Assembly: GCA_964358175.1 (NCBI GenBank)
Contig: CAYHOI010000001.1
Coordinates: 1-60,028 of the forward strand
From: an uncultured Candidatus Marinamargulisbacteria bacterium
GTDB lineage: Bacteria > Margulisbacteria > Riflemargulisbacteria > GWF2-35-9
Direction of reading: 5' to 3'
Length of the DNA: 60,028 bases
Shown here: one piece after another, positions 25,101 through 34,629 of the stretch
Layout: the number at the start of each line of letters is the position of its first letter
Numbering within the stretch: the stretch's first letter is position 1
Notes under the pieces: model-generated
Told to the model about the DNA's origin: nothing
Database searches by the model: none
The model's input: the letters and a program-made list of their open reading frames with translations, nothing else
Position numbers and translations under genes: made by a program

Positions 25101-28100
25101 TGTTACCAGCCTTGAAGATTTCAAGGTGAACAATGAAGGAACCGTTACGATTCAAATATTGGTCGCAGATCATGCAGGCAATATTCTCATTGAGACTGCA
25201 TCGATTATTGTGGATACACAAGTGCCAACGGGAATGGTGGTTTCAGTATTGTCTGACAATACGGATAGTGGTCAGGATGGCCTATTGCCCGAAGCCGGAT
25301 GGTACGATGATCCGCTGATTTCATTAAGTTGGACTGCCGCGACGGATAACGGAAGTGGCCTTCGAGATAAACCTTATCAAACGAAGAGTGAAGTTTCTAA
25401 TTATGACCTGCAACAGAGCACGACAACTGCAACGGTGGAAGCAAAGGTTAAATATACGTCCTACGAGGATCGGGTATCCTCTAAGTTATCAGTTCGTGCT
25501 GTTGATAGAGCCGGGAATATTTTGGAAGTGATGGCGTCAATCAACGTTGACCAGCGAGTTCCTGAACCCTATACGTTTACTGTAAAGCCTGATTCGCAAG
25601 AAAATCCGACCTATAATCCTTCTGCGGGTTGGTACAATGATCATACCCTAGAGTTGGAGTGGAGCGAGTCTCTTGATTTTGGTGGAATGCGCACATCTGG
25701 CAGTGTGTTGGCAAGAGTGGCCTCGGACATCCCATGGGTGACCTTGAATGAAAATGTGAGTCAGACCAATAATGACACTTTCTGGGTTTCTGAAGATGTT
25801 TCTGCAAGAACACTTGTTACAAGGATGGTAGACCATGCCGGAAATGTTCGGACGCAAGCAAGCAATGGTTTCAATGTAGATCTGACGCCGCCAACGTTTA
25901 GTCAGTTGGCTTTGGTTGGGGATGTCGATGTTCATGGCGTTGCGCTTGCGGCTGGATGGTATGACGATCAGATGGTTCGCTGGAAATGGTTTGGGGCGGA
26001 TAATGGGGGACTGTTTGATGCTCCGTATCGTTACCATAACTTGGTTTCCCCAAACTCACTTTGGAGTGATTGGAATGGACAGACGGGTGTTGAGATTTTG
26101 ACGACATGGGGGATTCCTCAGTTTTTTGAAGTAGAATTGCGCGATCAGGCGGGTAATCATATTACCCGAATAGAAAAGGTGAATGTCGCGGGATTTGCAC
26201 CGTCGGGAAATGTTAATTACTTTCTTAGCATAAATGTGACGGAGGTGACACCCGGATGGACAATCACTCCAAATGTAGGATGGTATGCAAGCCATACGTT
26301 GAATGTTGTGATCACCACAAATTATCTAAACCTCCTTGAACAGCAGAAGTTAACAGAGGACTTGACATACTATGTGTATAATACGAATGGTCAAACGCAG
26401 CCGATATATCAAGGAATTCCGACTTTTAGCAAGGTTATTTGTGGGGAGAGCGGCCGGGCAGGACTTACCGTTGTTTATGGTATTTTACTCAAGAGCGGCT
26501 TGAGGATTGAGGGGCGACAAATTATCTTTGTTGACACCCAGCCTCCGCAGGATTTTTCTGCAACTCTCCGAACGTGTACAGACCATGGAGGAGATGGTGT
26601 TTCACCGGAATCGGGATGGGTGGATACGATGAATTTCCACATTGATCTTCTTGCTCCGAAGGATGGGGGAATTCTAAGAGCTCAACCCTACCGGTATCGA
26701 TTTGCAGTCCCAACCGGTTCATGGAGTGATTACCAATCGTCAGAAAAAATTGAAAATCTTCAGATTTCCGAGAATCGAGCGTATATCGTTGAGGTCTCGG
26801 CAGTGGATTGTGCGGGAAATATTGCAACAGTTTCTGTTTGTGTAACTGTGGATACAATGCCTCCAACATTTAACGGCTTGGAGATTATCCTCATTCCGGC
26901 AACAAGTAATCAGGGAATTGAGCCTGTTCCGGGCTGGTATCGGAACGATAGTCTAAGTGGAAGTGTGACATGGAATCGAGTGACCGCAGATGACCTGAGA
27001 CAAAACTTTTTATATGTGAGAACAAATAGCGCGAAAACAGTAGGCAATTTTTCTGCTCTGACATTTGATGCCAAAGTGGTTCCGGCTGATATACTTCCAA
27101 TAAATATAGATGTATTTATTGCGGATCATGCGGGAAATGTTGCTCGATCAGCTAAGGTTATTTATTCAAAAGTGACCGTGCCAGGGAATAGTTACGTGAT
27201 TCTTAAACGAGACGGAAATCATAATCCGTGGTTTAAACCTGAAGAGGGATATTATGGCCGACTGAGCGTGGATGTTGAGTGGGCTGAGCCAATAGGTGGG
27301 GGGCTGAGAGGACGACCCTATCAGATCCAGAGCAGCTTATCCTCTAGTCGCAACTGGACGGCTTCTCAAGACGGGAAAGCCTACAATGGATATGCTGTGA
27401 GTGAAGGTGTTCAGGAGATTATTGTTCGTGCGGTGGATAAAGCTGCAAATATTGCAACGTTTTCAACCCTTGTTTCGGTGGATGTGACCGCGCCAGAGCC
27501 GATTGTTCTCTCTTTGGTGCAAGATCTTGACAACGATTCTGATGGAGCTGTTCCATTACAAGGTTTTGATGATGACGGGGTGATTACCGTTACATTTAAT
27601 CCTGTCTTTGATAATGTGGCATTGAGAGATAAGCCCTATTGTTCTTTATTGGGGGATTTAGAGGATATCCCGTCGGGGACAGTTCTGAGCCTTAGTCGTG
27701 AGGGTTATGCGACTCTGACAACTTCGGTAGAAGGAATACAAACTGTCTCGGTGGTAGCAGTGGATCGAGCAGGAAATTACCGAATTTCCATAGTAACCGT
27801 GAATGTGGAAAGAACGGTTTCAGAGTTTACGGTGAGCATTAATCGCACAGAGTTCCCCGTGTCGGCAAGCCTGATTGTTTCGGTGTCGATGACGAAGAGC
27901 ATTTCAAGAGTGCCGGGAGTGGTACTTTCGGTTGCTGGTGTGGATTACGGTCTTGCAGTGGTTCGTTCAGAGATTTCGCAGAATGTATTTATCGGAACCT
28001 TGGATGTGGGTGTGGTGGTGAGCGATGGTATTGGAATTCTTCGTTTCAGCGTCATCAATGATGCAGGGAAAATTGCCACCCAATCCATAGGCATGGTTTT

Positions 28101-31100
28101 ACCGATTTATATCCATCGGTTTGTCCCCGAGGAACCTGTAGTGTCATTCTTTAGTCCTTCGAATGGAAGCCGACAATATACCAATTCATTAAACGTTTTG
28201 GTGTCTTCAGATATGTCCCTGTCGCATCAGGATTATCTGTGGCTGATTACGGAGAATAGTACGCCTCCGACCCTTATGGATCCGAAGTGGACGACTCTAA
28301 ATGGGGAGTATCGCCTCGCAGAGGGTTCAGATGGCACCAGAAACTTATGGGTCTGGGTAAAGAATAGTTATGGGATGACTCTGCGGGCTGTTACTGCAAA
28401 TATTATGTTGGATCGTTCTTTGCCTACTGGGAACGTCAAAGTGGGACGAAGCGAGATTTGGTTTGGCAAGCAAACGTTCCTTCTGGAAACGAGTAAATTA
28501 CTGCCCGTGCCCCCTCAAGTCCTTCTCACCTTTGCTAGGGACGGAGTGACTAAATCTATGAATGTGAGTGGGGCGAACGGGAAATATCGAGCTGATTTCA
28601 CCTTTAAGGAAGATTTTGGTGAAGGGTATGTGACGATTCAGATTCAGATGGAAGACTATGCGGGGAATGTGTCTACCGTGAATATTGGCGCAACCAGGGT
28701 GCTCTTGAAGGTGATGTATCCCCACAGCCCGATTTTGAAAATAATGGATTTGGCGACTCATCAGTTGGATTATACGAACAACTTATCCAAAATCTATTGG
28801 AATTTGCTGGTGACCAAAAATAACTCAGAAGAAACATGGACTGACCAAAAATGGTACATCATCGACGATGTGACGGCCAATCGGCCTGAAGGCTACGATC
28901 CGAGATGGCTGGAATATTCTCCACAGCAAGGGGTTACCCTGCCTTCCGCATCCTATTTCAGGATGTATGGTGAGCAGGGCATCGAAACGAGTTCGTATAA
29001 TCCCCCAAAAGGCTATTTGAACAAGATGTTTTATGCATGGTTTAAAAATAGCGGAGGGTATGTAAGCCTACTGCCTTCAGTCGCAAGGATCACCGTTGAT
29101 GTGACTGCGCCCTCGGCGACCCTGAACTACCTCCCTTTACAGGGGACGACCGATGCACAGCTCAAGTTAACTCTTAACACTAGCGAGGGGGTAACGGTTT
29201 ACGGTTCAAAAATGATTCATTCAGATGGGGTGAATTCTTTTGAATTCATTGGATCTGGCAACCTATGGCTGACAACTAATTTGGGGGTGCGACCCTCAAA
29301 ACATCCTTTATTCTCAACTGTTATTCAGGATTATGCGGGGAATCAGACTACATTAGATGTTGATCTTCAACCCTATTTACAGATTTCAAGTATTAATTGT
29401 GTTACCCAGAGTGTTTCTCGGCTGGATAAAGATATCACTCTTCTTAGAATAGAAGTTTCTGCGTCAACTAAAGTGATTCTTTACGGACTTGTTATTCAAA
29501 AAACAGGAGATGATGGACACCGGACGCTGAGGACAATGCGATTGGTGAGTGGAAATACAGTGCTCAGCACTGCAACGTTCCCCAAAGACCAAATGACTGC
29601 GGAATTTGTCATGAAGGGTGGCGGTATGGTGATCACTCGACCCACTGTGCTAACCGTACGAGCTGATATTGAGGCGTCGGCAATGGAGCCGTTTGCTCTC
29701 AACGTTGATCGAAGTGGCTGGAAGGTGGATACCTATAACATTGCCTTAGAAGAGAACTTGCCATTTACTTCTGCCCCTTTCCAGATTATGGATGGAAGTA
29801 ATGAGCTGAGAATCTATCTTGAAGATAATTCTTGGCGTACTCAAACGGTGAAAGTCCATCAAAACGACAGAGATATTCTTCTTGGACAGTTCAATATGGA
29901 AAGTTACCCCTATAGTACGATGCTTAAGATGATTACCTTAAATATATCTGGAAATCTTACGACTCCTGGTTTGAGCGGGGTTCGGTTGATTCGAGATAGC
30001 AATTACAATGGGGTTTATGATCAACTCGAGGATGATCAGGTTGGCAATAGTCAAGCACAAGCACCAAAGCCAAGCACTTTATTGCTTAAGGGTCTTGATG
30101 AGAAAGTATCGCAAGTAGCGCAGAGGTATTTTATTGTGGGGGATATAGCATTAAGCGCGACCGTAAATAATTCTTTTCAGTTTAAAATTGCATCGAAAGC
30201 GGATGTTCAGCTGGGAGACAATCAATTTGTGAACGAGCGTGCACTGCCAATGTTGACCCAGACGAACACTGTGCTTCCTTATGTTCCAAAGGTCAGCCTT
30301 TCCGTTCGGAATGCTGTGAGCGAAGATGTTTTCCAGAGTCAAACCATTCAGCCCTATAGTTACTTGAGGTTTGCGACCGATTATCGTACGAGTAGTTTGA
30401 AAGAATTGGTCTTTAGAGTGTCCTGTAACATGTCTTATGACAATGTCGATATAATCAAGCTATTTATTGTAACTTCAGACAGTGCTGTGATTAATGTCTC
30501 GGATGAGCAATCTGCCAACACTCTAAAAGATCAAGATAAAATTAAAATGACCATGACGAATGAATTTCTCGTGACATCGAGTGGACGTTATTTGGCCGTT
30601 GGAATGAAGTTGAAGCCGGGTACTTCAACCGGACAGTTGCAATTGGTACTGCTTGCCGAAGGTATATCCTTCAATGAATCGGGCAAAAATGAGAATACAA
30701 GCAATCTTGACTTGGGACTTCTCAATATTGTGGATCTGCACCAGCCGATTTTTGATGGGGTGGATGTTCCACGGTATATCAATATAGCGGATCATGTGTC
30801 CTACAATTTTGATGTTGGCGTAAGTGCAGATCATACTGTGGTTGCTACCCTTGAAGTAGCGATTGGAAGTGATAGTGGACAGGAGAATGTAATGGCATGG
30901 ACTGCCTATGCTTTCAACCCACCAGCAGCCTATTTTGTGGACAAGGCCGGGGTGATGAATGGGCTTGCCTTGCAGCACAATCAATCGTATTTCATGAAAA
31001 TCCGTGCGAAGAGTTTTGATTCAGCAGGAGACTATGTGTCGACGCAGAAAATTCTGCCCTTCAAGGTGGATATGACGCCCCCGGTTGTGGCTCAAGGCGC

Positions 31101-31725
31101 AACGGTCTATGTCAATCAGACCGTTGGAGGTGCGCAATCGGCGTCTGCTCAGGGAGTTCGCAATACGCAGTATTTGACCTGGCCGGCGGCCAAGGATGAT
31201 GAGTCAGGGCTGAAGCGGTATGAAATTCAGTGGCAGAAGGGCACAAGCCTCAAGTGGGAGGTTCTGGAGTCGAATACGACGCAAAATTATTATAAACAGT
31301 CTAGCCTGGATCCTGCTCTGCGTTACAGGTACCGTGTAAGGGCTGAGAATAATGCAGGGAGCTACACGGATTGGCTTGTGTCATCGTATACGCAAGTGCA
31401 GAAGCCCAAAGAAGTCATCTACAATGTTTCGTTCTTTCCCAATCCTGTAAAGTCGCAGGAGCAGGATGGAACCCTCTATTATGAGCTGAATCAAGATGCG
31501 AATGTGACTATTAAGATTTACGATGCGCTTGGGCATTTTGTGCGCGAGATTAATTGTGTGTCTGGAAAAATGGGAGGCATGAGTTCCGAACCAAATCGAG
31601 TAATTTGGGGAGGCACCAATTATAAGGGCGAGAAAGTAGCAAAGGGGGGATACATTGTCGTCCTCTCTGCGGATAAAGAAGGGCCACAGAATATCGTCAA
31701 GATTACGGCAGGAATTCTGCGCTAA
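1..31725 (+). CDS. giant repetitive, predicted all-beta extracellular/surface protein, 5'-partial (at least 10,574 aa inside the window)
   Basis: Frame +1 has no stop from nt 1 (aat aat acg tcc tta aac tat gga ...) to TAA 31723-31725. Codons 1-17 (NNTSLNYGLPWKPSFSQ) already fit the repeat consensus that precedes each NGTND motif, so the TTG at 52 in the ORF track is an artefact of the window edge. The sequence holds dozens of modules ending D-x-AGN ... V-x-V-D-x-x-P-P and is very poor in Cys. No catalytic motif such as HExxH was seen. The C-terminus is a sorting-type beta-sandwich. Confidence 0.85.
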   Translation, partial: NNTSLNYGLPWKPSFSQLGEGTNDITYVISDNAGNVSSAWVCKILRDSLPPTWSPLSAPASFNLWYRVTPDMVTMDIDFADPSIAHSGIQQLAYRVSNNGGLSLSVWKTITSGVILDKYTKDWLVDWSLLGNGTNDILVGVLDRAGNGATYTVRSILKDTQKPSFNYTAGVGYNKWYHSIPQNLLQIPITLEDAGGSLLAGYSWGFINSTTANEYNVDNNINQLTMRTTINLDENWILNGTNNIFIIISDNAGNQITFNAFNLLNDDTTPDFMPIPVASYNYWTRTIPSWLSVPVTPLFTDAGGSLLATVNITLMTTGATTTYSLVLSTNQVATYDTPFVLTWNLLGNGTNNIYIKLIDGTGTATENRWFFVLKDEIPPQIKAQIISTDARYMSWLNSSGNLFNDLAISVTDNGYSLLDAFVCVVSNNRSDAWVSPHVLATQINRTSYPVDGGININWETLSNGTNDIFFVASDNAGWVVTSSVFFHILKDVVPPIIYVTINTGATKNFGAWHATAPPWLNRASVDAYDTGYSNILSISYRILRQKDNTYSPWQAVTTNYKQPTWNRGISVDWLLLFNGTNDVFVEVKDSANNVNSVTYSFSLLKDTVSPSIVIGSAVSGYTTQNWYRSETAPAFLQSVQVTVSDTGSSNINQLEYGVSANDAGWNAISWNILVSASRIQTTGNWAVSWGSLANGTNDILVRVSDNAGWVVTSGVLFRVLKDDVVPSFSLITPVASFNAWYRQAPDWFTWISVDASDSGHSTIATFSYQVTRLVDGSVSVWQTITSNYQKNIYSAGVSLDWNLLSNGSNDITFRVQDLAGNTTQNTAFTVLKDVNRPSINLGETSVDAKFSAWYRLSPAWADSIQVTFNDTGSSNISGIDYGVSWNGSPAVWRVITSASSASQHGAWNLLWTDLQDGTNDVLVRVSDNAGWVVTSAVLFRVKKDTIIPAVTLITPSMADDTAMWHNRSPGWLSSIKALVTDDGGSAIATVSYRLVTGVGGSGGDLLSSNVNQTSYAKPWQLLWSDLSDGTNDVYVRVTDNAFNAVDQYVFHVKKDVTVPSYDLSLVARSYRNPFATVPEEMSHITINFYDWGGAFIRDIDYAISINTILTGPTINWYPITSNYNASTLDVPWKIDGNRFLNGTSDVYVRLSDYAGNAVTSDVCFSIFRSEPGLTYNYELYDPGAYTSWYRAPQEFMANTMIRFYDVSGLTLLKTLQYGVSADGRVTWNTIRDNVNYMTYTTPFTIMWDTLMEGTNDILISFNNTDGAQMTSGVLFTLFKDSLAPLIAFAIQAPTGFANASNHDWLNHLTVNVTENGYSALKRLEWGKRTHSAWYSYSTILSVAGQKVASAHYAVPWDQMEEAYNALILEAEDNAGNITSVNLCVVSRDTIAPYPVMYDVENSVLYRDFITSQNQTEAISWVDRGDIGIAGVEKWLYYWGQDPNGTSATQHESASLPPFTVPAGTAGNGIYRLRVSPVDRAGNQGEWQPVYKYTYDSQVPARWYYTDHDGRYWYRSLTDLSASIGWFGRDDWGFAGVKRYHVLLTTNANVNPVGDPSSKVTTDMLVAWPTPSLQSEVRHKASFYWTIAIEDYAGNIGVNVAGTTYDRYSLSSFGLDLQPPLLDAINAGSPYDLRSAYTGLALPRGEWTSVDQFSIDVTPSAQDDASGVSYYQFNVGVSTPDSAQNYSYSYQMGRKFTSMQLQPMEQGNISKVYVRAIDWVNAISTWSVALATINYDGLPPNKAGHFLIGDGEAYSTGNSLIISWDEAFDEGGSGVTTYDVVAYAMSPAGVIVATESFSLPSVSRQIKIGALGDSPKIPLLNDEYIYFARLLVWDRVGWNSAKKYGSNRMDYAQQTNVIQIDRKSPFSVKNPREDARTNDLVTWKWGQPADNQGGSTPGSGVGQYQIRMYWKDPVTGLKADYFSTFNVADTTYEYPIAPGMEFGAEIRAIDNVGNLADNWMAIREGVLDSTPPNNPPVAISRDRSLYSIWAGDGTGNDIKVPAYTTGNVNQFQFIWMPGEDDVVGVKGYYVAWGKNLVTPNTYTGYTFTTSRTISLSIAETVTATYRLWLAATDYYNNTANWMEAYRYTYNGLATKNTIRPLAPVLSTRYISANNQGVTVTLTTKNASGVTLGSFDHYEVRLYRAFSEAFVTQNQFGSSANVKSDIFLLNSVALSPNTQYFIKYRAYYGISNFTEWSYASPYLFYDDVRPPTVNSVLLEEGEDIVTRTSGIAVRFYAARDSNDDNASYAGSGIDHYETVLFDSPSPGEQYSSGAVIPLLSPAYTNTGVKLTLTEPLADGHQYCLKVRAVDRAGNAGPWSETSNELMVDIRAPDVPVGITNSYVPTDPSGYTNVFSYIWSWTPATDAGGGGGGYTSGVRQYQYYYGYSMQRDTGAENTLVQTNATAVQEWAGYNAQGLRNNQSTGWRAKSTSQGGSGDVKYFYVRAQDWAGNWSDWSASPATTKVDVFAPAHPIPNPSMNTVVGTTSMTFSWSPVSDIGGGGLKYYHATLYDKNKLQVASSRNIPATRTSVTFTGLATDNAYVLKMDAEDVFGEKIPAYPYFSQGMVPRWDADLLSAWVMVDATPPAPPNYIRRSVWAFNTNTADDPPGQIMYSAILDSVGSAEFGNNFRADYGSNYCYYGANKEMSDYLSSYEDKINANLIYYRNGSVSDAELGAISYSLGRGDYTGAQLRQLLVDMAYLKGEAHTDQSGANPRYAISDYYVNNYRPTLNIPNQGGYYYNGVFQNSEINTVQTYVNGRLSGSEVMNALKLSDFGSILSDGSSFRVTNFTPGMNYDDFRRSLISSQPKLNGVVLVGDLVGISVNRTPTDGVAVFDRLKSKGYLDVAGVINPLYDFTQGDQVSGVKKTTWNITNADISNRLKTIQSDYHSSALASSVLKKLYTDMGAQYDELRMELNTMLTSNRRVANPNNLTTTLADIVSRSHGYVWFWGRAADDGLGGSGVSTWEVQVKEDGQNEASRSLSLPYDQPWLNCAGSYTSFPGFNGSPALSVSASMRLRAMDNAGNAGEWSDWRGVTANGLRVWYQAPPGNRSVYDTGSLLGIKNGRSDTQSLWAQNRELNLLWDGSQMWGPDLFYDYSSSMGQSDLPQGRTKYRFHDVNDSTISGGTNRMYVMAYNAENEGTNELVYSLDYDALPPDRPSISTPLATQNVPNSYTFSWSGGADPNPGSGLKSYHVQIVDADGNVAYERTDFTGDSYLFTEGKSGKKYTLRVNAVDNAGLSGEIAMTNAWVVVDKDAPPAPDMLWVNTGKVSNGSMWSSSANYNVWRWVLPQDTGRSGLASYNIAINESNKGWLEVTSGMIDKTTYLSNAPIFAKIKFSDKAGNISGEKNSSYPLKIDTEAPLIDLSVADIRELNGMVNDVWQTSTRSVIFSWEQANKNAASDALSGVVALEYYWGPEADKTSGFAINTFDKKVTPVGQMPAGAETIYFFKMRSQDNAGNWSPMATLYTTKYDNFVKSIEDVRQSVTTNRYSNQLTQNYNWGNVSDLTGIQSFVFSFYVSGNLLDSMDDGVLTRDVTIPYDSAIYDSSSSRFMASVMLDNQFSSQDVYVRMRVRDTNGNVSIAGNKSEKMWLDFTAPNAVDVPTIDNGSIIHVTSRNFGVTWNWTAPKDIGGSGLSSYDTKLQVYSDAQAVSINPNVPSTVNRAVYPQVFTDNVYAFSISAHDRAGNTGNISFGQLFVVDTVAPSVNLQLRNACSAYGWNRPFKENIYYLIRGNTVGLSIYMKDKASEQIGNVGSGIASMKLELYELATPDTGEFALASVPTFSLSANSICTFGIPMTSSVIHTSQNTQLWRYALISDDIVISDSYLSSQQFVDPTSNATANFIQMTLSRNWTGFFRLSLSVKDFANNETSQNYYLYYDPVPPSIDMGFSGMIFLSTNAMVYIRRLDGGQSVIQEDASNGSKYADERSRMTFFPIAGYQLYEVSGANQQKLGLNITGSRYYPYCELEQGAWGSGFMVLSTNAKFYVRVFDELSEEIGFFQGGGNQPNRSWDAAGDILISSESGRINVNGYQLPFAKYGLIDDFYQNEATNRLTHNPERNVTFLDYARECLEVSLNADVVDGTRLVLGVADMAGNVTTVSSLPVYRSSPIILVTADASLQYPVPHSYNRRYGTQYSWGDYTYGTQRVSASFYVDTVNVYVSANMTVSSEVHSLRDGLQQPFFFAQNGVEINPYSGLSATGYSVSGKSTMNYVYWGQFSVVTLSTGAQTPLLSGQGKYISINVPNRYGDSDVSIRVSYSVDEDYPSLTVNTFFVYPAIPIVNPTVDNRLGAMSMTTNRVAITSDGVDEISGIFPSSFFVTQLSESLHSLKEVLFIRATNSLSTPNWISANNEGSNGVWLTDNAGVGLSDTPFLHRLRQNGLITTDWQAGFEGLSGTVTLGVNVMDVIWRDKAGNYSGTTNLAIVYDRTPPELLAVSLNADWVDAATTVSMVFEKPYQSIQGGTPMLPNDPINSLHAFYMDGYQGLRLYFRISDNAKVNGWLSADAADVNTVRVQWTTNNTYWHSYTVNGGSFNVYQPSGDFGVFKITQSHEIEARRPALNNGEAFNYCFFVSASMIISDNALFGSGIPEIVTQNQAYAFRIDLLDYAGNASRATGSYTVNIDNDRSNRSVELTISGDSTVNTANAKIVTQNSHGAGLLNSELYTPQDCDPFAAPNEKIYNDGQIFAKLGITVNTLVGREYALVWTTMNPVVQPLNKPSYVYYAYGKIGWATSNSNFVGTGNFAFDFFNPTPDIGRTGLSSGLPYYATNNALLTLPTTDTVIHLFVAPMGVAGNPINIDSGTWATITIDLSAPILSGNSAPFYLHDLAGTTLNALKGLYVSRSVIEGDCPVAPSFDPMAHLDFLGLGSYFFQDVHRSTHVQFGRGDYVDLQSGMPTNNTFLRKKVYRADVAGSNGYLFEQLSSERYSSIANMIDTDLAAFGEGLYRFDLYTSNKAGLVTKSSFAVVMDGTPPTINQFAFEVSVSQDYEPVSVNYYGSQNIRISWSASDNMGVSSNGQLTGGDSSGIWFYELRFENLTTPSVKGYVFSSRNTTITWDQGLGLAFVPTKAISTTLNWRDVVGIIKLGKVRFTLNAYDYALLTISRSHEVYIDSGNEVQSMVSLADPQEDNVDNQQDGESPSESSQGASGYFDQTSINLVIQFLPTAFDTTQLNRASPQRTHLPIEVFLVTPGSVAAVPISTSLIVVTYSNSANLDVQGAPTANLANYRLTLSVVDTKEFVKTGGYEGPVTLSYKIVDGAGYRSAMTSIFTRVTIDMSAPTGSYGFHEGLKFIGSDNTYFLYGVSENFAFATTTSGTKVSANYEDAHSGLSSKPYRFMVSLNSLAGAYQGVDKDMGWQARTSSPFDLLSSEISTSNKWYAVKLRVRNQTGVVAYNTLNVILDTQTPNIYFFAVLQETASNEYARSAENFVGKRATTINWGASDNVFSESFGSIFGVTGNSHQGIRQYQLSFATPNVRSISADIFPAITTNIVTVGYTEFVIGEGVVRYVIRAFDFANNETVVTKGPYYYDWTNTLHNQVGQILAVTDNTDEDGDGISPVSANGVSGYFDQPTISIQLILSTTADDATQLNYLSDAHIPVEVFAVTNAVMTRIAASQIWATYDHKLLIDAHPNLAAYSIAITINLADIVSRDRYQGGVTLFFKLIDGVGNLSLTTNTPLRLTVDLSAPTGQMRVLSGVTFQGSTSNFAQYGVSTNMLFTSVNAVAMDHQYSDAHSGLAISWNKVTVIRYPLEGGVGTAVNRDWSDVSQVSINSVQAMISNNLFLVESDILNGVGEVAHSATWNVVFDTVPPTINAEDFMLTFNVLSGGYAPSSVNYLQSTTLDLVWVATDNVFASSPNLFAVLSHRGVYQYRLSFSKDGQTFTSVSANMMPAVNNHLYISPNELLGTIGEGRVYFKLEAVDFAGNWSSRNIGPYFMDLQNTLNEQIVRIEPVTANNDSMPDYFQKSPFDASGKNGYFDRVSVDFIIHLSPNASDLTQLSYLEGSYIPLEVYVVTDGVKKARVWDSDIHATYNRDVLPSLNATSNLASVPIAVTINFSNYVGTSNYNGRIQFYYKIIDGAGNVSATTNTDMAFLDVTVDMTAPVGNSRFGEGFTFVGSGNTFGLNGVSDDVAFARQLSNLVISMDYQDAESGLAISSNYFSVWEYSLTHNYVTSGNRGWTNVPTLNLSDMGTITQNRWYKVVGFAANNTGVITKATTRNVIIDLVDPVVVTFSLSGELQSGSDYGSSSLNFAQVQTLNFVWTASDNMFSDLTIGEFKQKNHQGISLYAFLYKVNGIDWVTLNGSITPTAQNEFQVDKTTVNSLFSGKKAFFKLVAYDFAMNQSSKEYGPVFFDSGTVLEQAISACILEDKTDADDLGGSPFDVSGQGYFDQSVLKMRLQLMDTANDVTQLSTLPSGNIPLEVMATFYGSNRGSLYFSKVFPGNLQKLSATYNYGRLPTIDAANNLGGITIDILTLNLFDQIEGSGWNGGVGLSFKLIDGAGNLSTDWSREFRVTVDVTPPTVALLWGTRDYFVTGNDETFDQFGFGKSSQYPVKFPYVGFSRQIQSLRLSGNAQDQDSGLPTGAYRYDVTQFAFSNLSSTVNSDSTGWTATPTLNLSERFTGMIAPNFAYRVDLHARNQVGRTSISTNLIILDDVAPTFQAMNRSEPVGGDYSATSKDLYSLQDVLLTWRASDNFYAENAGGEGNFFNARDHQGVYFYQVWYEKNGVTASITENMLAYADNDFVVSKGYIRQSIGEGIVTFSIRATDFAGNTSVTTSRLRFDWSNTINLQIADMISAMDATNSDEDLWDRRQSDKWGDFVDDVSPFDASDGQLGIFDQTVIPVHIRIAENGYDISQISELTPNHIPFEVYISHDGQVLTINHDRIWVTYDRKTDIESPSNIASRNYWLTVDVGEWVGVEPLHRGAFQLLVKVIDGAGNLSSFDTKEFRLTVDRTPPTSDASAPFYFNEPIGWVTYNPLFLDGYNGVAFINTTHFSAQMVSFNDAESGLSEQPYWMKLAGVGFKDENENQADKGSVQITWQTQEAFTGVSLSELGYQGLTGGGVFDLFFKVRNNAGIVTYNLNYLCIDLLKPVLVTFQRTEHIDVDQDGYLPEEDTYYNKQAIWLTWDAYDNLGYRGDQPAEVVTGDPDAIWFYTLSWTCRSLTGNMVSSGDILTPGMRLDAKQWFLPTSGVSVIDDVSYGISISDNLKEGNVEFILGAVDYALNVTTKSMQVVFDWTNRATASSNFYFVADQTDSSTPADGVIPEAGYFDQTTMTVVITLDHVIELTQLSTRNLKVNYSTGNSGSELSVMNPEDYRYSIEGVDGKFTVTIDFNLAPYLMTLNVVEGQPVRSGVVSLNITLLDRAGNMPSVPANMGCRVTVDMQSPSLESSGVFDVYLYPDKDSMGDGIDPENGYLDDSLPYITVTLNSRVTSNGAAQMDQCLNVRLFDDSRIQKASANTFELISENRSLMIVVTMDKGGWSVPLQADQQIATLPSENSYTYEFYLRDKAGNILSRVVTLNYDRTPPVLRDRAFVYKVEPAKGEDHGGDGIDPLAGYYDSPFATVNIQLNIPNWTVGYGNSLASSYNDGVSESYHGSGIRKRPLFVRLESLTPLNIPGVYASATYPGGHFGAELTANLFAVGIPLTRDAARIIVMMADRAGNVVTLNDTNRVTMDDRMPFGISFNLVDTRDVSGIGIFPVYGFFNHQVITFNIEGSQVDRGLSGLRGNRFVVSTANGIWKNYTYQSRYVDPELKEQNEPGTDSPLIGSLRLPTGTVTVWAGLVDRAGNVGVISQPIVVDMTPPSINLFSLDFATNNKGLRGDIDSHGDGVDPYYGYWDEPSVNIEVVSLSYAEDYRRSNDVFVKDYRYTHVPVMHDFGLGWVTTENNIGQSSRVFREIYVPEGNSQPIVVYVADLAGNVVSRQILVTVDQTVPAGFAQIVLDVDTDSQGDGVDPLYGFFDNVEVGLVISENTADSSGFRVNRYLIRSNSARTLSYNVHDYKNKDKSESLHRPIDLEQGDQVAFGQDSSQIFNFKPASEDEKQIEIVAGISDCAGNVREVTASITVDTQPPTGDFQGKLITDTDSALDGIDPLEGYYDSLAVSVLLSSNVVDNIGMRTNRYFIKTGDAGFLTSYNAYPYDGNHYFSEGADVPGIGKFGSATGSITGITYNAQGVYEVHVAVADGAGNLLEKTVRVTIDLTQPSSVPIVRLAPYRAGGNRVEADEGWYGSNEVDFYAEFRNGATDELSGLRDVPYVARVVTPGTNQISWLLEQRDPAFKQIWVPEDRSITKNSSLFVGLVDRAGNVASASVPVHVDLTPPTGNLSLIIRPDSKNDASQLIPESGYYNDNTMDLQWQMVSDYLGLKSRPFRVKANEMPWSDSLNVTSLEDFKVNNEGTVTIQILVADHAGNILIETASIIVDTQVPTGMVVSVLSDNTDSGQDGLLPEAGWYDDPLISLSWTAATDNGSGLRDKPYQTKSEVSNYDLQQSTTTATVEAKVKYTSYEDRVSSKLSVRAVDRAGNILEVMASINVDQRVPEPYTFTVKPDSQENPTYNPSAGWYNDHTLELEWSESLDFGGMRTSGSVLARVASDIPWVTLNENVSQTNNDTFWVSEDVSARTLVTRMVDHAGNVRTQASNGFNVDLTPPTFSQLALVGDVDVHGVALAAGWYDDQMVRWKWFGADNGGLFDAPYRYHNLVSPNSLWSDWNGQTGVEILTTWGIPQFFEVELRDQAGNHITRIEKVNVAGFAPSGNVNYFLSINVTEVTPGWTITPNVGWYASHTLNVVITTNYLNLLEQQKLTEDLTYYVYNTNGQTQPIYQGIPTFSKVICGESGRAGLTVVYGILLKSGLRIEGRQIIFVDTQPPQDFSATLRTCTDHGGDGVSPESGWVDTMNFHIDLLAPKDGGILRAQPYRYRFAVPTGSWSDYQSSEKIENLQISENRAYIVEVSAVDCAGNIATVSVCVTVDTMPPTFNGLEIILIPATSNQGIEPVPGWYRNDSLSGSVTWNRVTADDLRQNFLYVRTNSAKTVGNFSALTFDAKVVPADILPINIDVFIADHAGNVARSAKVIYSKVTVPGNSYVILKRDGNHNPWFKPEEGYYGRLSVDVEWAEPIGGGLRGRPYQIQSSLSSSRNWTASQDGKAYNGYAVSEGVQEIIVRAVDKAANIATFSTLVSVDVTAPEPIVLSLVQDLDNDSDGAVPLQGFDDDGVITVTFNPVFDNVALRDKPYCSLLGDLEDIPSGTVLSLSREGYATLTTSVEGIQTVSVVAVDRAGNYRISIVTVNVERTVSEFTVSINRTEFPVSASLIVSVSMTKSISRVPGVVLSVAGVDYGLAVVRSEISQNVFIGTLDVGVVVSDGIGILRFSVINDAGKIATQSIGMVLPIYIHRFVPEEPVVSFFSPSNGSRQYTNSLNVLVSSDMSLSHQDYLWLITENSTPPTLMDPKWTTLNGEYRLAEGSDGTRNLWVWVKNSYGMTLRAVTANIMLDRSLPTGNVKVGRSEIWFGKQTFLLETSKLLPVPPQVLLTFARDGVTKSMNVSGANGKYRADFTFKEDFGEGYVTIQIQMEDYAGNVSTVNIGATRVLLKVMYPHSPILKIMDLATHQLDYTNNLSKIYWNLLVTKNNSEETWTDQKWYIIDDVTANRPEGYDPRWLEYSPQQGVTLPSASYFRMYGEQGIETSSYNPPKGYLNKMFYAWFKNSGGYVSLLPSVARITVDVTAPSATLNYLPLQGTTDAQLKLTLNTSEGVTVYGSKMIHSDGVNSFEFIGSGNLWLTTNLGVRPSKHPLFSTVIQDYAGNQTTLDVDLQPYLQISSINCVTQSVSRLDKDITLLRIEVSASTKVILYGLVIQKTGDDGHRTLRTMRLVSGNTVLSTATFPKDQMTAEFVMKGGGMVITRPTVLTVRADIEASAMEPFALNVDRSGWKVDTYNIALEENLPFTSAPFQIMDGSNELRIYLEDNSWRTQTVKVHQNDRDILLGQFNMESYPYSTMLKMITLNISGNLTTPGLSGVRLIRDSNYNGVYDQLEDDQVGNSQAQAPKPSTLLLKGLDEKVSQVAQRYFIVGDIALSATVNNSFQFKIASKADVQLGDNQFVNERALPMLTQTNTVLPYVPKVSLSVRNAVSEDVFQSQTIQPYSYLRFATDYRTSSLKELVFRVSCNMSYDNVDIIKLFIVTSDSAVINVSDEQSANTLKDQDKIKMTMTNEFLVTSSGRYLAVGMKLKPGTSTGQLQLVLLAEGISFNESGKNENTSNLDLGLLNIVDLHQPIFDGVDVPRYINIADHVSYNFDVGVSADHTVVATLEVAIGSDSGQENVMAWTAYAFNPPAAYFVDKAGVMNGLALQHNQSYFMKIRAKSFDSAGDYVSTQKILPFKVDMTPPVVAQGATVYVNQTVGGAQSASAQGVRNTQYLTWPAAKDDESGLKRYEIQWQKGTSLKWEVLESNTTQNYYKQSSLDPALRYRYRVRAENNAGSYTDWLVSSYTQVQKPKEVIYNVSFFPNPVKSQEQDGTLYYELNQDANVTIKIYDALGHFVREINCVSGKMGGMSSEPNRVIWGGTNYKGEKVAKGGYIVVLSADKEGPQNIVKITAGILR
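4181..11100 (+). repeat. block B: about 16 FN3-like modules carrying a W..x..D..SG(V/L/I)xxY signature
   Basis: Recurrent signatures include DDASGVSYYQFNV, EGGSGVTTYDVVAY, PGSGVGQYQIRMYW, AGSGIDHYETVLFD, YTSGVRQYQYYYGY, GGGGLKYYHATLYD, PGSGLKSYHVQIVD, GRSGLASYNIAINE and GGSGLSSYDTKLQV. Each is followed by (R/A)A(I/V/Q)D.AGN..(E/D)W and a P-rich boundary. Confidence 0.55.
7800..8820 (+). other. unique ~330-aa non-repeat insert inside block B
   Basis: It lies between WAFNTNTADDPPGQIMYSAIL and HGYVWFWGRAADDGLGGSGVSTWEVQV. The sequence is Y/N/S/G-rich and includes the only clearly helix-like stretch seen in the protein (ADISNRLKTIQSDYHSSALASSVLKKLYTDMGAQYDELRMELNTMLTSNRR). I found no copy elsewhere in the ORF. 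Confidence 0.45.
11101..14879 (+). other. block C: ~1,260-aa weakly periodic central region
   Basis: D.AGN / D..PP boundaries still occur (KDFANNETSQNYYLYYDPVPPS, VADMAGNVTT, RDKAGNYSGTTNLAIVYDRTPPE, LLDYAGNASRATGSYTVNIDND), but spacing is irregular and the intervening sequence is not repeated. The one exception is a small internal echo (FLSTNAMVYIRRLDG / VLSTNAKFYVRVFDE). Confidence 0.4.
14880..22110 (+). repeat. block D: five complete and one partial ~1.22-1.31-kb super-repeats (~410-435 aa each, 4-5 subdomains)
   Basis: Unit boundaries (V-I-x-D-x-x-x-P) lie at ~14880, 16180, 17400, 18640, 19930 and 21235. Each unit contains W.ASDN.F...HQG(I/V).(Y/L)Y, then (S/N/Q)GYFDQ...TQL(N/S)...IP(I/L/F)EV, then (K/L)(I/L)IDGAGN(L/V)S...TVD(M/L/V)(S/T)(A/P)PT, then DA(H/E)SGL(S/A). 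The GYFDQ motif sits at nt ~15413, 16660, 17884, 19118, 20458 and 21758. Confidence 0.65.
22111..27830 (+). repeat. block E: about 16 tandem ~120-aa modules with an N-terminal acidic loop and a (G/A)(Y/W/F)(Y/F/W)D motif
   Basis: Loop examples are DKDSMGDGIDPENGYLD, GEDHGGDGIDPLAGYYD, DIDSHGDGVDPYYGYWD, DTDSQGDGVDPLYGFFD, DTDSALDGIDPLEGYYD, DNTDSGQDGLLPEAGWYD, CTDHGGDGVSPESGWVD and DLDNDSDGAVPLQGFDD. Each module closes with VDRAGN / ADHAGN ... V(T/I/H)VD(L/T/Q)(T/Q)PP. Confidence 0.6.
27831..29390 (+). repeat. block F: alternating A-B-A-B-A arrangement of two module types
   Basis: Type-B modules are PVVSFFSPSNGSRQYTNSLNVLV...YLWLITENSTPPTLMDPKW...GTRNLWVWVKNSYG and PILKIMDLATHQLDYTNNLSKIYW...KWYIIDDVTANRPEGYDPRWLEY...KMFYAWFKNSGG. 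Type-A modules end in NDAGKIAT, EDYAGNVST and QDYAGNQTT. Confidence 0.5.
29391..30740 (+). repeat. block G: three ~145-aa modules of a further, unnamed beta-sandwich type
   Basis: All three share one pattern. A condition-like strand is followed by a set-label strand: DKDITLLRIEVSASTKVILYGLVIQKTGD, DRDILLGQFNMESYPYSTMLKMITLNISGNLTTPGLSGVRLIRDSNYNGVYD and QPYSYLRFATDYRTSSLKELVFRVSCNMSYDNVDIIKLFIVTSD. Confidence 0.4.
30741..31416 (+). other. two FN3-like domains preceding the C-terminal domain
   Basis: The second domain is canonical FN3: YLTWPAAKDDESGLKRYEIQWQKGTSLKWEVLESNTTQNYYKQSSLDPALRYRYRVRAENNAGSYTDW. Confidence 0.6.
31417..31722 (+). other. C-terminal FlgD-Ig-like / T9SS type-A-like sorting domain (~100 aa)
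   Basis: The sequence is IYNVSFFPNPVKSQEQDGTLYYELNQDANVTIKIYDALGHFVREINCVSGKMGGMSSEPNRVIWGGTNYKGEKVAKGGYIVVLSADKEGPQNIVKITAGILR. It follows the known pattern (F/Y)PNP...L...V.I.IYD..G..V......G.....W.G.N..G..V..G.Y at the extreme C-terminus. Confidence 0.6.
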
Positions 31726-31934: not shown

Positions 31935-32621
31935 TTGCGCATGGATATATTGATGCCTGTCTTTTTGTGTTGGGTCGTTCTGATGATCGGGATCGCGTTT
32001 TCCTATGGCGATGTTCAGGCAGTTTTTGAGGGAGATCCAGCGGCAAAAAATATTTTTGAAGTGTTGACGTACCCCGGGGTGTATGCCATATCCATGCACC
32101 GTGTGAATCATCTTATTTATAGACTTGGGGTTCCGTTTCTTCCACGCTTACTGTCACAAGTGATGAGGTTTTTGACCTTTATCGAGATTCATCCTGGAGC
32201 CCAAATAGGCAAGGCATTTTTCATTGATCATGGGGATGGTGTTGTGATTGGAGAAACGGCAGTGGTTGGAGATCATGTCATCCTCTATCATCAAGTGACG
32301 CTTGGAGGAACTGGTAAGCAAAAAGGGAAGCGACACCCAACGATTGGCAGTCATGTTATTATCGGGGCGGGTTCTAAAATATTGGGAAATTTGAAAGTGG
32401 GAGAGTATTGTAAAATTGGAGCTGGTACCATCGTCATTCATGACGTGCCAGAGCACTCAACGGTTGTGGGTAACCCAGCACGTGTCGTATCTGGACAGAA
32501 GGGCGATCCATTCCTTAATTTGGGGGATGTTCCGGATCCTATTCAGGAGAACTTTATTCGACTTGAGAAGGAAATTAGCGAGTTAAAGCGGGAAATAGCG
32601 AGGGATCGTCGTGATAAGTGA
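31935..32621 (+). CDS. cysE: serine O-acetyltransferase
   Basis: Motifs: DPAAKNIFEVLTYPGVYAISMHRVNH, IEIHPGAQIGKAFFIDHGDGVVIGETAVVGD, VTLGGTGKQKGKRHPTIG, and hexapeptide repeats. The protein is collinear with Bacillus-type CysE, including the C-terminal coiled tail. The start is ambiguous: TTG 31935, ATG 31941, 31953 or 31983. Confidence 0.85.
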   Translation: MRMDILMPVFLCWVVLMIGIAFSYGDVQAVFEGDPAAKNIFEVLTYPGVYAISMHRVNHLIYRLGVPFLPRLLSQVMRFLTFIEIHPGAQIGKAFFIDHGDGVVIGETAVVGDHVILYHQVTLGGTGKQKGKRHPTIGSHVIIGAGSKILGNLKVGEYCKIGAGTIVIHDVPEHSTVVGNPARVVSGQKGDPFLNLGDVPDPIQENFIRLEKEISELKREIARDRRDK

Positions 32622-33279
32622 GATCAAATATCGACGCATATTGAATGTTTCGGAGGATGCGACCATTGATGAGATCAAGCGAGCTACTAAGGAATTGCTC
32701 AAGAAATGCCATCCAGATAAGCATCATGCGCACCGAGGATGGGCTGAAACACAAACTAAGCGAGTTTTAGAGGCTTACCAGGTTCTGGTAAAGGATCAAA
32801 TCCAAGGCATGAAAATGATTAGAAAAGGTGTGCCTTCTCGCCCGCCAGTGCAAGTTATCTATAAGGAAAAGAAAGTAAATTTTATTGAAACAACGCTTCC
32901 AGACACTGGTGGGGATGCATTTCTTTGGCTTGATGTTGACATCATCCACCAGGTGGTTCACGGTAGTTCAGTTCAATGGTCAAAAACCCTGATCGTCGGC
33001 ATGCTGGGTAAGCAGCAATATTACTTTATCAATCCATTTATTACGCTGAGACATGCTCCATTTAATCCGAGCGATAAGATCATGTTGTTTAAAAAAGATC
33101 CAGCTTCTCAGAGGCATTTGGCTTATTGCTTTTCAACAGGAGGCAAATTAGTGGAGTGTGCCGAGAAAACACTAAATTCTACGCCAGTAGAGATTTGTGG
33201 GCAACTTGAATTGAAAGGACAGGGTGGACGTTATTACTTGGGGCATCAGGATTTGTTGGTAGTCGATCAGTTGTATTAG
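32611..33279 (+). CDS. J-domain protein with an uncharacterised, possibly CheW-like, C-terminal domain
   Basis: The N-terminus is YRRILNVSEDATIDEIKRATKELLKKCHPDKH (HPD motif). It has a GTG start overlapping the cysE stop. The C-terminal ~130 aa loosely follow the CheW pattern (see findings). Confidence 0.6.
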   Translation: MISEIKYRRILNVSEDATIDEIKRATKELLKKCHPDKHHAHRGWAETQTKRVLEAYQVLVKDQIQGMKMIRKGVPSRPPVQVIYKEKKVNFIETTLPDTGGDAFLWLDVDIIHQVVHGSSVQWSKTLIVGMLGKQQYYFINPFITLRHAPFNPSDKIMLFKKDPASQRHLAYCFSTGGKLVECAEKTLNSTPVEICGQLELKGQGGRYYLGHQDLLVVDQLY

Positions 33280-33332
33280 CTTTTCTGCGATTGTTGCGGT
33301 TCGGTCTCTAATCGATTATGATGAAGGAGACA

Positions 33333-34618: not shown

Positions 34619-34629
34619 GGAGCGGTCGC

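What the first reader, a model, noticed from the sequence alone, without database searches (positions are those of the whole stretch)
30741..31725. The giant protein ends in an FN3 pair plus a FlgD-Ig / T9SS-type C-terminal domain, but no secretion genes are nearby
The last ~100 aa (FFPNP...VTIKIYDALGHFVREI...VIWGGTNYKGEKVAKGGYIVVL...KITAGILR) follow the pattern of C-terminal sorting domains of type IX secretion cargo and of the related FlgD-like Ig domains. The latter terminate many huge surface proteins in FCB-group and candidate-phylum genomes. This is the only targeting signal visible, and it predicts export and covalent or non-covalent surface attachment. The downstream neighbours are cysE and chemotaxis genes, not porU/porV-type components.
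Basis: partly seen in the sequence, partly recalled or inferred. Interest (0 to 1): 0.6.

Follow-up and report, generated by a model that had tools for sequence, protein, structure and literature searches.

The report
Type-IX-style tail without type IX machinery
A giant (about 16,500-residue) surface protein of a groundwater Margulisbacteria genome ends in a domain of the kind that type IX secretion uses as a sorting tag. The genome and 20 relatives lack the type IX pore, motor and sortase, but carry many PorV/PorQ-like outer-membrane barrels, mostly encoded right beside such tagged genes, so the tail most likely docks the protein onto a barrel.

Summary

The last ~105 aa form a 7-stranded Ig-like C-terminal domain (CTD):
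- Pfam FlgD_ig scores 36.7 bits against a cut-off of 27.
- The T9SS type-A model scores 22.9 against 23.
- The best sequence and fold match in the PDB is the uncleaved CTD of PorU, followed by FlgD and PorZ.

The organism is a Margulisbacteria-type MAG, not an FCB-group bacterium. SprA, GldK/L/M/N and the PorU peptidase part were not found in it or in 20 relatives. The SprA search was validated on a Zixibacteria genome.

All 21 genomes carry 4-17 PorV/PorQ-family 14-strand barrels. In this genome, 6 of 8 CTD genes directly abut one. Across the relatives, 48 of 149 CTD matches have a barrel gene starting 78-491 nt downstream, where chance predicts fewer than 1.

The window's giant gene has no adjacent barrel, and neither do its orthologues. 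Its 5' half, with a signal peptide, lies on contig C4.

Best reading: Sec export, then non-covalent anchoring of the uncleaved CTD on a PorV/PorQ-like barrel, as in the PorZ-PorQ and PorU-PorV pairs. How the protein crosses the outer membrane is unknown.

This is a new variant of a known kind. Other agents in this scan have already noted the same pairing in other lineages.

The parts
1..31725 (+). 3' part (10,574 codons plus stop) of a giant surface-protein gene, cut at its 5' end by the contig end. The 5' half (5,885 codons, with a signal peptide) is the ORF on contig C4 at 3..17657 (-).
   Evidence: ORF list. The C4 ORF has the same ~110-aa repeat module. The N-terminus of the 16,438-aa orthologue in G004 aligns collinearly to the C4 ORF at 37% identity, and the upstream ferritin, desulfoferrodoxin and rubrerythrin genes are syntenic. 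The 528-aa tail is conserved over its full length in ORFs of 11,991-16,989 aa in relatives.
30736..31128 (+).
   Evidence: No Pfam hit at E<=10, no PDB sequence hit, and no similarity to the confirmed FN3.
31165..31365 (+). Fibronectin type III domain.
   Evidence: Pfam fn3, 28.6 bits against a cut-off of 25, at P0001 residues 343-409.
31408..31722 (+). C-terminal domain (CTD): a 7-stranded Ig-like beta-sandwich of the T9SS-CTD / FlgD_ig kind, closest to the PorU and PorZ CTDs.
   Evidence: FlgD_ig 36.7 bits, over the cut-off; TIGR04183 22.9 against 23. Profile against PDB sequences: PorU 6za2 residues 1055-1153, E 6e-9; PorZ 5m11 CTD, E 4e-5. AF2 model pLDDT 82; Foldseek top hit PorU 6za2, TM 0.73, rmsd 2.2 A, 26% identity.
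31935..32621 (+). Serine O-acetyltransferase (cysE); unrelated neighbour.
   Evidence: TIGR01172, 219.4 bits against a cut-off of 210.65.
32611..36496 (+). DnaJ-domain protein, CheD, CheR, HDOD protein and FliM. These are chemotaxis and flagellar neighbours, not secretion genes. The order giant-DnaJ-CheD-CheR-HDOD-FliM recurs in relative G004.
   Evidence: Pfam scan. For G004 (locus L121) the gene names are my reading of ORF sizes and visible motifs; no profile search was run on them.

Best explanation
The window holds the 3' two-thirds of a gene of at least 16,459 codons for a repeat-built cell-surface protein. The organism is a groundwater Margulisbacteria-type (Riflemargulisbacteria-related) bacterium.

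The protein starts with a Sec signal peptide, encoded on contig C4. It ends in one FN3 domain followed by an Ig-like C-terminal domain that is homologous to the type IX secretion CTD. The closest relatives of this CTD are the CTDs of PorU and PorZ, which are not cleaved in Porphyromonas.

This lineage has no detectable T9SS translocon (SprA), motor or ring (GldK/L/M/N), or sortase (the PorU peptidase part). It does have a multigene family of PorV/PorQ-like 14-strand outer-membrane barrels, usually encoded immediately next to a CTD-bearing gene.

Inferred mechanism:
1. After Sec export the protein reaches the cell surface.
2. Its uncleaved CTD binds non-covalently to the outer face of a PorV/PorQ-like barrel. 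This anchors the fibre to the outer membrane, as PorQ holds PorZ and PorV holds PorU.
3. Several barrels carry periplasmic SLH, SPOR or TPR extensions that would tie the anchor to the cell wall.

The giant in this window has no adjacent barrel, and neither do its orthologues. It would use one encoded elsewhere; the unpaired barrels on C32 and C21 are the candidates.

Shown: domain identities, gene pairing, and absence of the T9SS core. Inferred: CTD-barrel binding, surface location, and lack of cleavage. Unknown: the route across the outer membrane.
For: CTD identity:
- Profile hits to FlgD_ig and the T9SS CTD models.
- Best PDB sequence matches are the PorU and PorZ CTDs.
- The AF2 model's best fold match is the PorU CTD.
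- All 8 CTDs of this genome hit the PorU CTD region, and 7 of 8 hit TIGR04183.

Terminal position: the domain closes 8 of 8 proteins. Signal-peptide-like N-termini are visible on the six whose start lies on a contig; C67 and C138 are cut at the contig end.

Barrels:
- NF033709 (PorV/PorQ family) scores 97-148 bits over its full length in relatives (cut-off 90), and 78 bits in this genome.
- The AF2 model shows an N-terminal hatch plus 14 strands. Its best fold match is PorV (8gl6_F, E 1e-9, TM 0.72).

Pairing:
- 6 of 8 CTD genes in this genome abut a barrel gene on the same strand.
- 48 of 149 CTD matches in 21 genomes have a barrel match starting 78-491 nt downstream, against a chance expectation below 1.

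T9SS core absent in 21 genomes. SprA was found at 560 bits in the Zixibacteria control.

Barrel extensions: SLH, SPOR and TPR.

Literature: the PorU and PorZ CTDs are uncleaved and PorQ anchors PorZ (PMC10947112).
Against: - No binding, localisation or expression data exist.
- The giant's own gene and all its orthologues lack an adjacent barrel, so its partner is a guess.
- No outer-membrane translocon has been identified, so surface exposure is inferred.
- The GldK/L/M/N and PorU searches had no T9SS-positive control genome.
- The best barrel in this genome scores below the NF033709 cut-off (78 against 90 bits).
- The giant's CTD misses the TIGR04183 cut-off by 0.1 bit, and only its N-terminal half aligns to that model.
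Confidence: 0.6

Rival explanations
1. Minimal or proto-T9SS. The CTD and its barrel are not only an anchor but part of a stripped-down export route. The barrel would collect the CTD from a not-yet-recognised outer-membrane pore, with no GldLM motor and no sortase. One candidate pore is the conserved ~1,700-residue OMP-like protein that shares a ~65-aa domain with SprA.
For: - 16,000-residue proteins must cross the outer membrane somehow, and no known translocon was found.
- A conserved family of ~1,430-1,800 aa has a signal peptide and a C-terminal ...GKLIF beta-signal. It is present in most relatives and lies 3-10 kb from the ~2,550-aa CTD gene in several of them.
- hhalign to an SprA profile gives 96% probability for the repeated domain.
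- The same cargo-barrel pair exists in a T9SS-positive Zixibacteria genome, where SprA is present.
Against: - Outside the ~65-aa repeat, the similarity to SprA is no better than a shuffled control: 10% against 5% probability.
- There is no PDB sequence hit.
- The synteny is loose.
Confidence: 0.2
2. Ordinary T9SS cargo. The genome has a normal type IX system that was missed because the MAG is incomplete or the components are too divergent.
For: - The MAG is 95% complete and in 154 contigs.
- The CTD and PorV/PorQ families are otherwise T9SS hallmarks.
- The GldK/L/M/N searches had no positive control.
Against: - Seven component models failed in 21 genomes, including one closed and several ~99-100% complete genomes.
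- The same pipeline finds SprA at 560 bits in distant Zixibacteria, and picks up 20-bit partial similarities elsewhere.
- The PorU model matches only through its CTD part, in about 150 places.
Confidence: 0.07
3. A passive structural Ig domain. The FlgD_ig-type domain is just the last bead of a beads-on-a-string fibre, with no sorting or anchoring role.
For: - FlgD_ig is a generic Ig-like fold.
- The giant's gene has no adjacent barrel.
- FlgD and C5a-peptidase domains are also fold matches.
Against: - The domain is strictly C-terminal in 8 of 8 proteins that are otherwise unrelated: a GH8-PKD enzyme, a probable protease (my reading of the sequence, no profile run), and giants.
- Adjacency to PorV/PorQ barrels is enriched more than 100-fold.
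- The best matches are CTDs that bind such barrels.
Confidence: 0.1

Closest known systems
PorU-PorV and PorZ-PorQ sub-complexes of the Porphyromonas gingivalis T9SS attachment complex
   Same: An Ig-like CTD that is retained and held by a 14-strand PorV/PorQ-family outer-membrane barrel. PorU and PorZ are the best sequence and fold matches of this CTD, and PorV is the best fold match of the barrel.
   Different: No SprA/Sov, PorK/L/M/N or PorU peptidase is detectable in this lineage. The barrels are multicopy (4-17 per genome), mostly one per cargo gene, and often fused to SLH, SPOR or TPR extensions. The cargo proteins are adhesin-like giants and enzymes, not machinery parts.
Type B CTD cargo with adjacent PorP/SprF-like barrel (e.g. 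SprB/SprF in Flavobacterium johnsoniae; PG1035-PorP)
   Same: The logic of one cargo with one cognate barrel encoded next to it, and surface anchorage through the barrel (PMC9143113, as cited). SprB is also a giant repeat adhesin; this last point is from my own knowledge.
   Different: The barrels here are of the PorV/PorQ family, not PorP/SprF: TIGR03519 and PF11751 give only marginal hits. The CTD is nearer to type A and the PorU/PorZ CTDs than to CHU_C (18.6 against 27 bits). No T9SS is present to export the cargo.
T9SS type A CTD cargo (TIGR04183 / PF18962) of FCB-group bacteria
   Same: Shared motif layout (PNP strand, G-x-Y strand, hydrophobic-basic last strand) and C-terminal position. 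7 of 8 CTDs in this genome hit TIGR04183. An equivalent CTD-protein plus barrel pair is found in a T9SS-positive Zixibacteria genome.
   Different: The giant's CTD scores 22.9 against 23, and only over the first half of the model. The host phylum lies outside the FCB group and lacks the machinery. Cleavage and lipid or LPS attachment are not expected without PorU.
FlgD hook-cap Ig-like domain (PF13860)
   Same: The Pfam model is passed (36.7 bits) and FlgD structures are the second-best fold matches.
   Different: This is not a flagellar hook-cap protein. The domain sits at the end of secreted multidomain proteins and is paired with outer-membrane barrels.

Membership tests
FlgD_ig (Pfam PF13860) | Profile score at or above the gathering threshold (27 bits) | tested here: met
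   36.7 bits on the last 104 aa and 33.5 on the 528-aa tail. 5 of 8 CTDs in this genome match.
T9SS type A sorting domain (TIGR04183 / PF18962) | Profile score at or above the curated cut-off (23 / 27 bits) | tested here: not met
   TIGR04183 gives 22.8-22.9 against 23, covering only model positions 2-36 of 72. PF18962 gives 18.3 against 27. 7 of 8 paralogous CTDs match TIGR04183 at E<=0.01, best 7e-10.
T9SS type A sorting domain (TIGR04183 / PF18962) | Extreme C-terminal position and a 7-strand Ig-like beta-sandwich | tested here: met
   The domain ends 12-18 residues before the stop in 8 of 8 proteins. The AF2 model has 7 strands and pLDDT 82, and its best fold match is the PorU CTD at TM 0.73.
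T9SS type A sorting domain (TIGR04183 / PF18962) | Removed by the PorU sortase after export | not testable with these tools
   No PorU peptidase region was found in 21 genomes. Cleavage can only be tested by proteomics.
Type IX secretion system (whole system) | SprA/Sov translocon present | tested here: not met
   TIGR04189 finds nothing in this genome and nothing over the cut-off in 20 relatives. PF14349 finds nothing in 21 genomes. Positive control: 560 + 134 bits in Zixibacteria CP070813.1.
Type IX secretion system (whole system) | GldK/L/M/N (PorK/L/M/N) ring and motor present | tested here: not met
   GldL and GldN give 0 of 21. GldM gives 2 marginal 18-20-bit hits. GldK gives only partial FGE-sulfatase-type hits in 6 relatives and none in this genome. 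No T9SS-positive control genome was run for these four.
Type IX secretion system (whole system) | PorU C25-type sortase present | tested here: not met
   NF033707 matches about 150 places in 21 genomes. All lie in model positions ~865-1095 (the CTD region), apart from one 49-bit hit to positions 341-540 in G012.
PorV/PorQ family outer-membrane barrel (NCBIfam NF033709), for the partner genes | Full-length profile match at or above 90 bits | tested here: met
   Relatives score 97-148 bits over positions 1-326 of 326, and 19 of 21 genomes have a match over the cut-off. The best match in this genome is 78 bits (E 1e-21, full length), which is below the cut-off.
PorV/PorQ family outer-membrane barrel (NCBIfam NF033709), for the partner genes | 14-strand FadL-like barrel with an N-terminal hatch | tested here: met
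   The AF2 model of the C24 barrel from this genome has pLDDT 80 and 14 strands. Foldseek's top hit is PorV (8gl6_F, E 1e-9, TM 0.72), followed by TodX, TbuX and FadL.
PorV equivalog (NF033710) / PorQ equivalog (NF033711) | Score at or above the equivalog cut-off (250 / 220 bits) | tested here: not met
   Best scores are 23-47 bits for PorV and 39-104 bits for PorQ. These are family members, not orthologues of PorV or PorQ.
fn3 (PF00041) | Profile score at or above 25 bits | tested here: met
   One domain scores 28.6 bits at window 31165-31365. The claimed second copy was not detected.

The most novel reading that the evidence does not exclude
Margulisbacteria may run a stripped-down relative or precursor of type IX secretion, with one carrier per cargo. 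The same pair was seen in one Elusimicrobia locus, where no machinery search was run. The system would consist of a CTD tag, a dedicated PorV/PorQ-like barrel that is often wall-tethered by SLH, SPOR or TPR domains, and an unrecognised outer-membrane pore. It would have no GldLM motor and no sortase. A candidate pore is the conserved ~1,700-residue OMP-like protein that shares a repeated domain with SprA. The system would display proteins of up to ~17,000 residues.
Probability: 0.2. Interest if true: 0.85.

Novelty: new variant of a known kind. Interest (0 to 1): 0.6.

Why it matters
Published surveys and reviews place type IX secretion, its CTD tag and PorV-type carriers in Bacteroidota or the FCB superphylum only (PMC4793230, PMC11205867). 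I found no paper that links Margulisbacteria with type IX secretion.

Here the two substrate-handling parts, the CTD and the PorV/PorQ barrel, occur as tightly linked gene pairs throughout a Cyanobacteria-related phylum that lacks the pore, motor and sortase. Three consequences follow.

1. The CTD-barrel interaction could be studied as a self-contained surface-anchoring module.
2. It bears on how the T9SS attachment complex evolved.
3. It warns annotators that a "T9SS sorting domain" hit does not imply a T9SS.

It also gives a concrete hypothesis for how the largest proteins of these small genomes are held on the cell surface.

Tried and rejected
- **Word-index homologue search with the CTD region:** 26 candidates, none significant.
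- **Genome-collection scan with the 6-CTD alignment:** RecA was used instead and gave the taxonomy, but no FCB genome to serve as a control.
- **Second FN3:** no Pfam, PDB or internal similarity. Rejected.
- **The ~1,700-aa OMP-like family as a divergent SprA:** profile-profile comparison gives 96% probability, but only for a ~65-aa repeated domain. The N-terminal part without that domain scores like a shuffled control, and the C-terminal part gives nothing. There is no PDB sequence hit. Kept only as a lead.
- **A link between CTD loci and flagellar-motor paralogues:** C18 has FliF-like, FliG-like, MotA and MotB genes after a CTD-barrel pair, and C15 has two FliG-like genes before a CTD gene. 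This was not seen at seven CTD-barrel loci of relatives, so it is not part of the explanation.
- **Literature searches:** FlgD-Ig C-terminal sorting, Margulisbacteria plus T9SS, and Termititenax secretion all found nothing relevant.
- **Exact contig overlap between C4 and C1:** none found. The join rests on orthology and synteny.
Full report
**1. Observation**

The window is the whole of contig C1 of a 1.94-Mb, 154-contig MAG that is 95% complete and has 44.5% G+C. Frame +1 is open from base 1 to the stop at 31723-31725.

- On the last 104 aa, Pfam FlgD_ig scores 36.7 bits (cut-off 27).
- The T9SS type-A model TIGR04183 scores 22.9 against 23 and aligns only to its first half.
- CHU_C (type B) scores 18.6 against 27.
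- The best NCBIfam hits are the C-terminal ends of PorZ and PorU.
- One fn3 domain lies at 31165-31365 (28.6 bits). The supposed second FN3 has no support.
- The downstream genes are cysE, a DnaJ-domain gene, cheD, cheR, an HDOD gene and fliM.

**2. The organism**

RecA is 78% identical to a Candidatus Riflemargulisbacteria MAG, and no more than 66% identical to anything else. NCBI names orthologues of one of this genome's barrel genes "[Candidatus Margulisbacteria bacterium]". The contigs come from Hainich groundwater well H43. This is not an FCB-group organism.

**3. The whole gene**

Contig C4 carries a 5,885-codon ORF that runs off the 3' end of its contig. It begins with a signal-peptide-like N-terminus and is built from the same ~110-aa module as the first 1,400 residues of the window's ORF.

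In relative G004 a single 16,438-codon ORF has a tail that matches the window (45% identity). Its first 1,344 residues align collinearly to the C4 ORF at 37% identity, and the upstream ferritin, desulfoferrodoxin and rubrerythrin genes are syntenic.

The gene is therefore at least 16,459 codons long. Orthologues in the same order are 11,991-16,989 codons and keep the same 528-aa tail.

**4. The CTD**

An HMM iterated on this genome, together with the PorU-model hits, finds eight proteins that end in this domain, always 12-18 residues before the stop. Signal-peptide-like N-termini are visible on the six whose start lies on a contig; C67 and C138 are cut at the contig end.

- All eight hit the CTD part of the PorU model, 7 of 8 hit TIGR04183, and 5 of 8 hit FlgD_ig.
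- A profile of the eight finds the PorU CTD as the best PDB sequence (6za2 residues 1055-1153, E 6e-9). FlgD follows, then the PorZ CTD (5m11), then a free T9SS CTD (8glj_D).
- The AF2 model (pLDDT 82) is a 7-strand sandwich. Its best structural match is again the PorU CTD (TM 0.73, rmsd 2.2 A, 26% identity), followed by FlgD.

**5. T9SS machinery**

Results in this genome and 20 relatives from 11 families of the phylum, one of them a closed genome:

| Component | Model | Result |
|---|---|---|
| SprA | TIGR04189 | nothing over the cut-off |
| SprA_N | PF14349 | 0 of 21 |
| GldL | TIGR03513 | 0 of 21 |
| GldN | TIGR03523 | 0 of 21 |
| GldM | TIGR03517 | two 18-20-bit hits |
| GldK | TIGR03525 | partial FGE-sulfatase hits in six relatives, none here |
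| PorU | NF033707 | matches only through its CTD region |

The same SprA search finds SprA at 560 + 134 bits in a Zixibacteria chromosome that I reached through a barrel homologue. That serves as a positive control in a distant T9SS-bearing lineage. The other components had no such control.

**6. The unexpected part: PorV/PorQ barrels**

The weak PorV hits turned out to be members of NCBIfam NF033709, "PorV/PorQ family". They score 97-148 bits over their full length in relatives, and 78 bits in this genome. There are 4-17 per genome in all 21 genomes, and eight in this one.

An AF2 model of one barrel from this genome (pLDDT 80) shows an N-terminal hatch and 14 strands. Its best structural match is PorV from the substrate-bound T9SS complex (8gl6_F, E 1e-9), followed by the FadL family.

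Gene pairing:
- In this genome, 6 of 8 CTD genes directly abut a barrel gene on the same strand: C72, C30, C67, C138, C24 and C18.
- Across the 21 genomes, 48 of the 149 listed CTD matches have a barrel match starting 78-491 nt downstream, and about 19 more have one just upstream. Chance predicts fewer than 1.

Several barrels carry C-terminal TPR, TPR+SPOR, or Ig+3xSLH extensions. These fit periplasmic wall tethers.

The same pair, a large protein ending in a CTD (preceded by an FN3-like stretch in the Elusimicrobia example, by my reading of the translation) followed at once by a barrel, occurs elsewhere too. It is present in an Elusimicrobia MAG and in the T9SS-positive Zixibacteria genome.

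**7. The window's own gene is an exception**

It has no adjacent barrel on either side; the C4 upstream genes are ferritin, desulfoferrodoxin and rubrerythrin. Its orthologues have none either. This genome has two unpaired barrels, on C32 (420 aa, conserved across the order) and on C21. Which one serves the giant, if either, cannot be told.

**8. Mechanism**

[quoted passage not shown] Type B cargo proteins are anchored by adjacent PorP-like barrels (PMC9143113, as cited there).

By analogy, the best-supported reading is Sec export followed by non-covalent docking of the retained CTD on a PorV/PorQ-like barrel. How proteins of this size cross the outer membrane without SprA is unexplained.

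One lead is a conserved OMP-like family of ~1,430-1,800 aa, with a signal peptide and a C-terminal ...GKLIF. It shares a repeated ~65-aa domain with SprA. Outside that domain the similarity is no better than a shuffled control.

**9. Novelty**

Surveys and reviews restrict T9SS to Bacteroidetes or the FCB group, and no paper links Margulisbacteria to it. Earlier notes of this scan describe the same CTD plus PorV-like pairing in Elusimicrobia, a Margulisbacteria-type contig and other lineages. My results were obtained before I read those notes, and they agree.

I rate this a new variant of a known kind. It uses known parts (a T9SS-type CTD and a PorV/PorQ barrel) in a new arrangement (one barrel per cargo, wall-tethered, without the T9SS core), in an unexpected phylum.

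**10. Verdict**

Confidence in the anchoring explanation is 0.6. Interest is 0.6.

Noticed in passing
genome contig C4 3..17657 (-), joined to window 1..31725: The giant gene is split by the assembly. C4 holds its 5' 5,885 codons, with a signal peptide. Synteny and collinearity with the 16,438-codon orthologue in G004 support the join. No exact sequence overlap between the two contig ends was found.
   Followed up: yes
genome C32 16666..18078 (+) plus C65 1..3630 (+); L107 2647..7782 (-), L108 1357..6753 (-): A conserved OMP-like family of ~1,430-1,800 aa, with a signal peptide and a C-terminal ...GKLIF / ...GTIFF. It has 3-4 copies of a ~65-aa domain that is also present once in SprA (model positions ~590-670) and resembles DUF2460 / phage distal-tail domains. 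In several relatives it lies 3-10 kb from the ~2,550-aa CTD gene. Homology to SprA is not shown beyond that domain.
   Followed up: partly
genome C18 7082..20500 (L122 1095..14504): A co-directional run of genes: a GH8-PKD-CTD protein (1,820 aa), a PorV-like barrel, a FliF-C-like protein, a FliG-like protein, MotA, MotB, an unknown 180-aa protein and two TPR proteins. The genome has 4 FliG-like genes and 5 MotAB pairs. This linkage was not seen at seven CTD-barrel loci of relatives.
   Followed up: partly
genome C15 12438..22262 (L092 6451..16266): Two FliG-like paralogues (493 and 267 aa, far below the FliG cut-off) overlap head-to-tail with the start of a 2,513-aa CTD protein, which has no adjacent barrel. 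Conservation in relatives was not checked.
   Followed up: no
window 32611..36496 and L121 (G004:C52): The gene order giant - DnaJ-domain - CheD - CheR - HDOD - FliM is conserved between this genome and G004. In G004 the names are my reading of ORF sizes and visible motifs, with no profile search run. cysE is present only here. The window's FliM is the only FliM in the genome.
   Followed up: partly
genome C67 7977..9851 (-), C138 476..2671 (-), C72 7346..9319 (-); L001, L005: PorV/PorQ-like barrels fused to C-terminal extensions. Profile-tested: TPR on C72, TPR+SPOR on L005, and an Ig-like domain plus three SLH repeats on L001. On C67 and C138 the Ig/SLH-like extensions are read by eye only. 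This suggests outer-membrane barrels tethered to the wall polymer, an arrangement different from the N-terminal SLH of OmpM-type tethers (that comparison is from my own knowledge).
   Followed up: partly
L102 1..7881 (Elusimicrobia MAG) and L106 341..7791 (Zixibacteria CP070813.1): The same cargo-CTD then PorV/PorQ-like (+TPR) barrel pair exists outside this phylum. One example is in Elusimicrobia: a 3,520-aa protein with a 4-nt overlap to the barrel gene. The other is in a Zixibacteria genome that does have SprA.
   Followed up: partly
G012:C28:23031-23630: The only match of the PorU model outside its CTD region: positions 341-540, 48.9 bits, inside a 3,856-aa ORF of a same-class relative.
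   Followed up: no
window 4001..10000: G+C reaches 54-57% in this part of the giant ORF, against 44.5% for the genome and ~45% in the ORF's 3' end and flanking genes.
   Followed up: no
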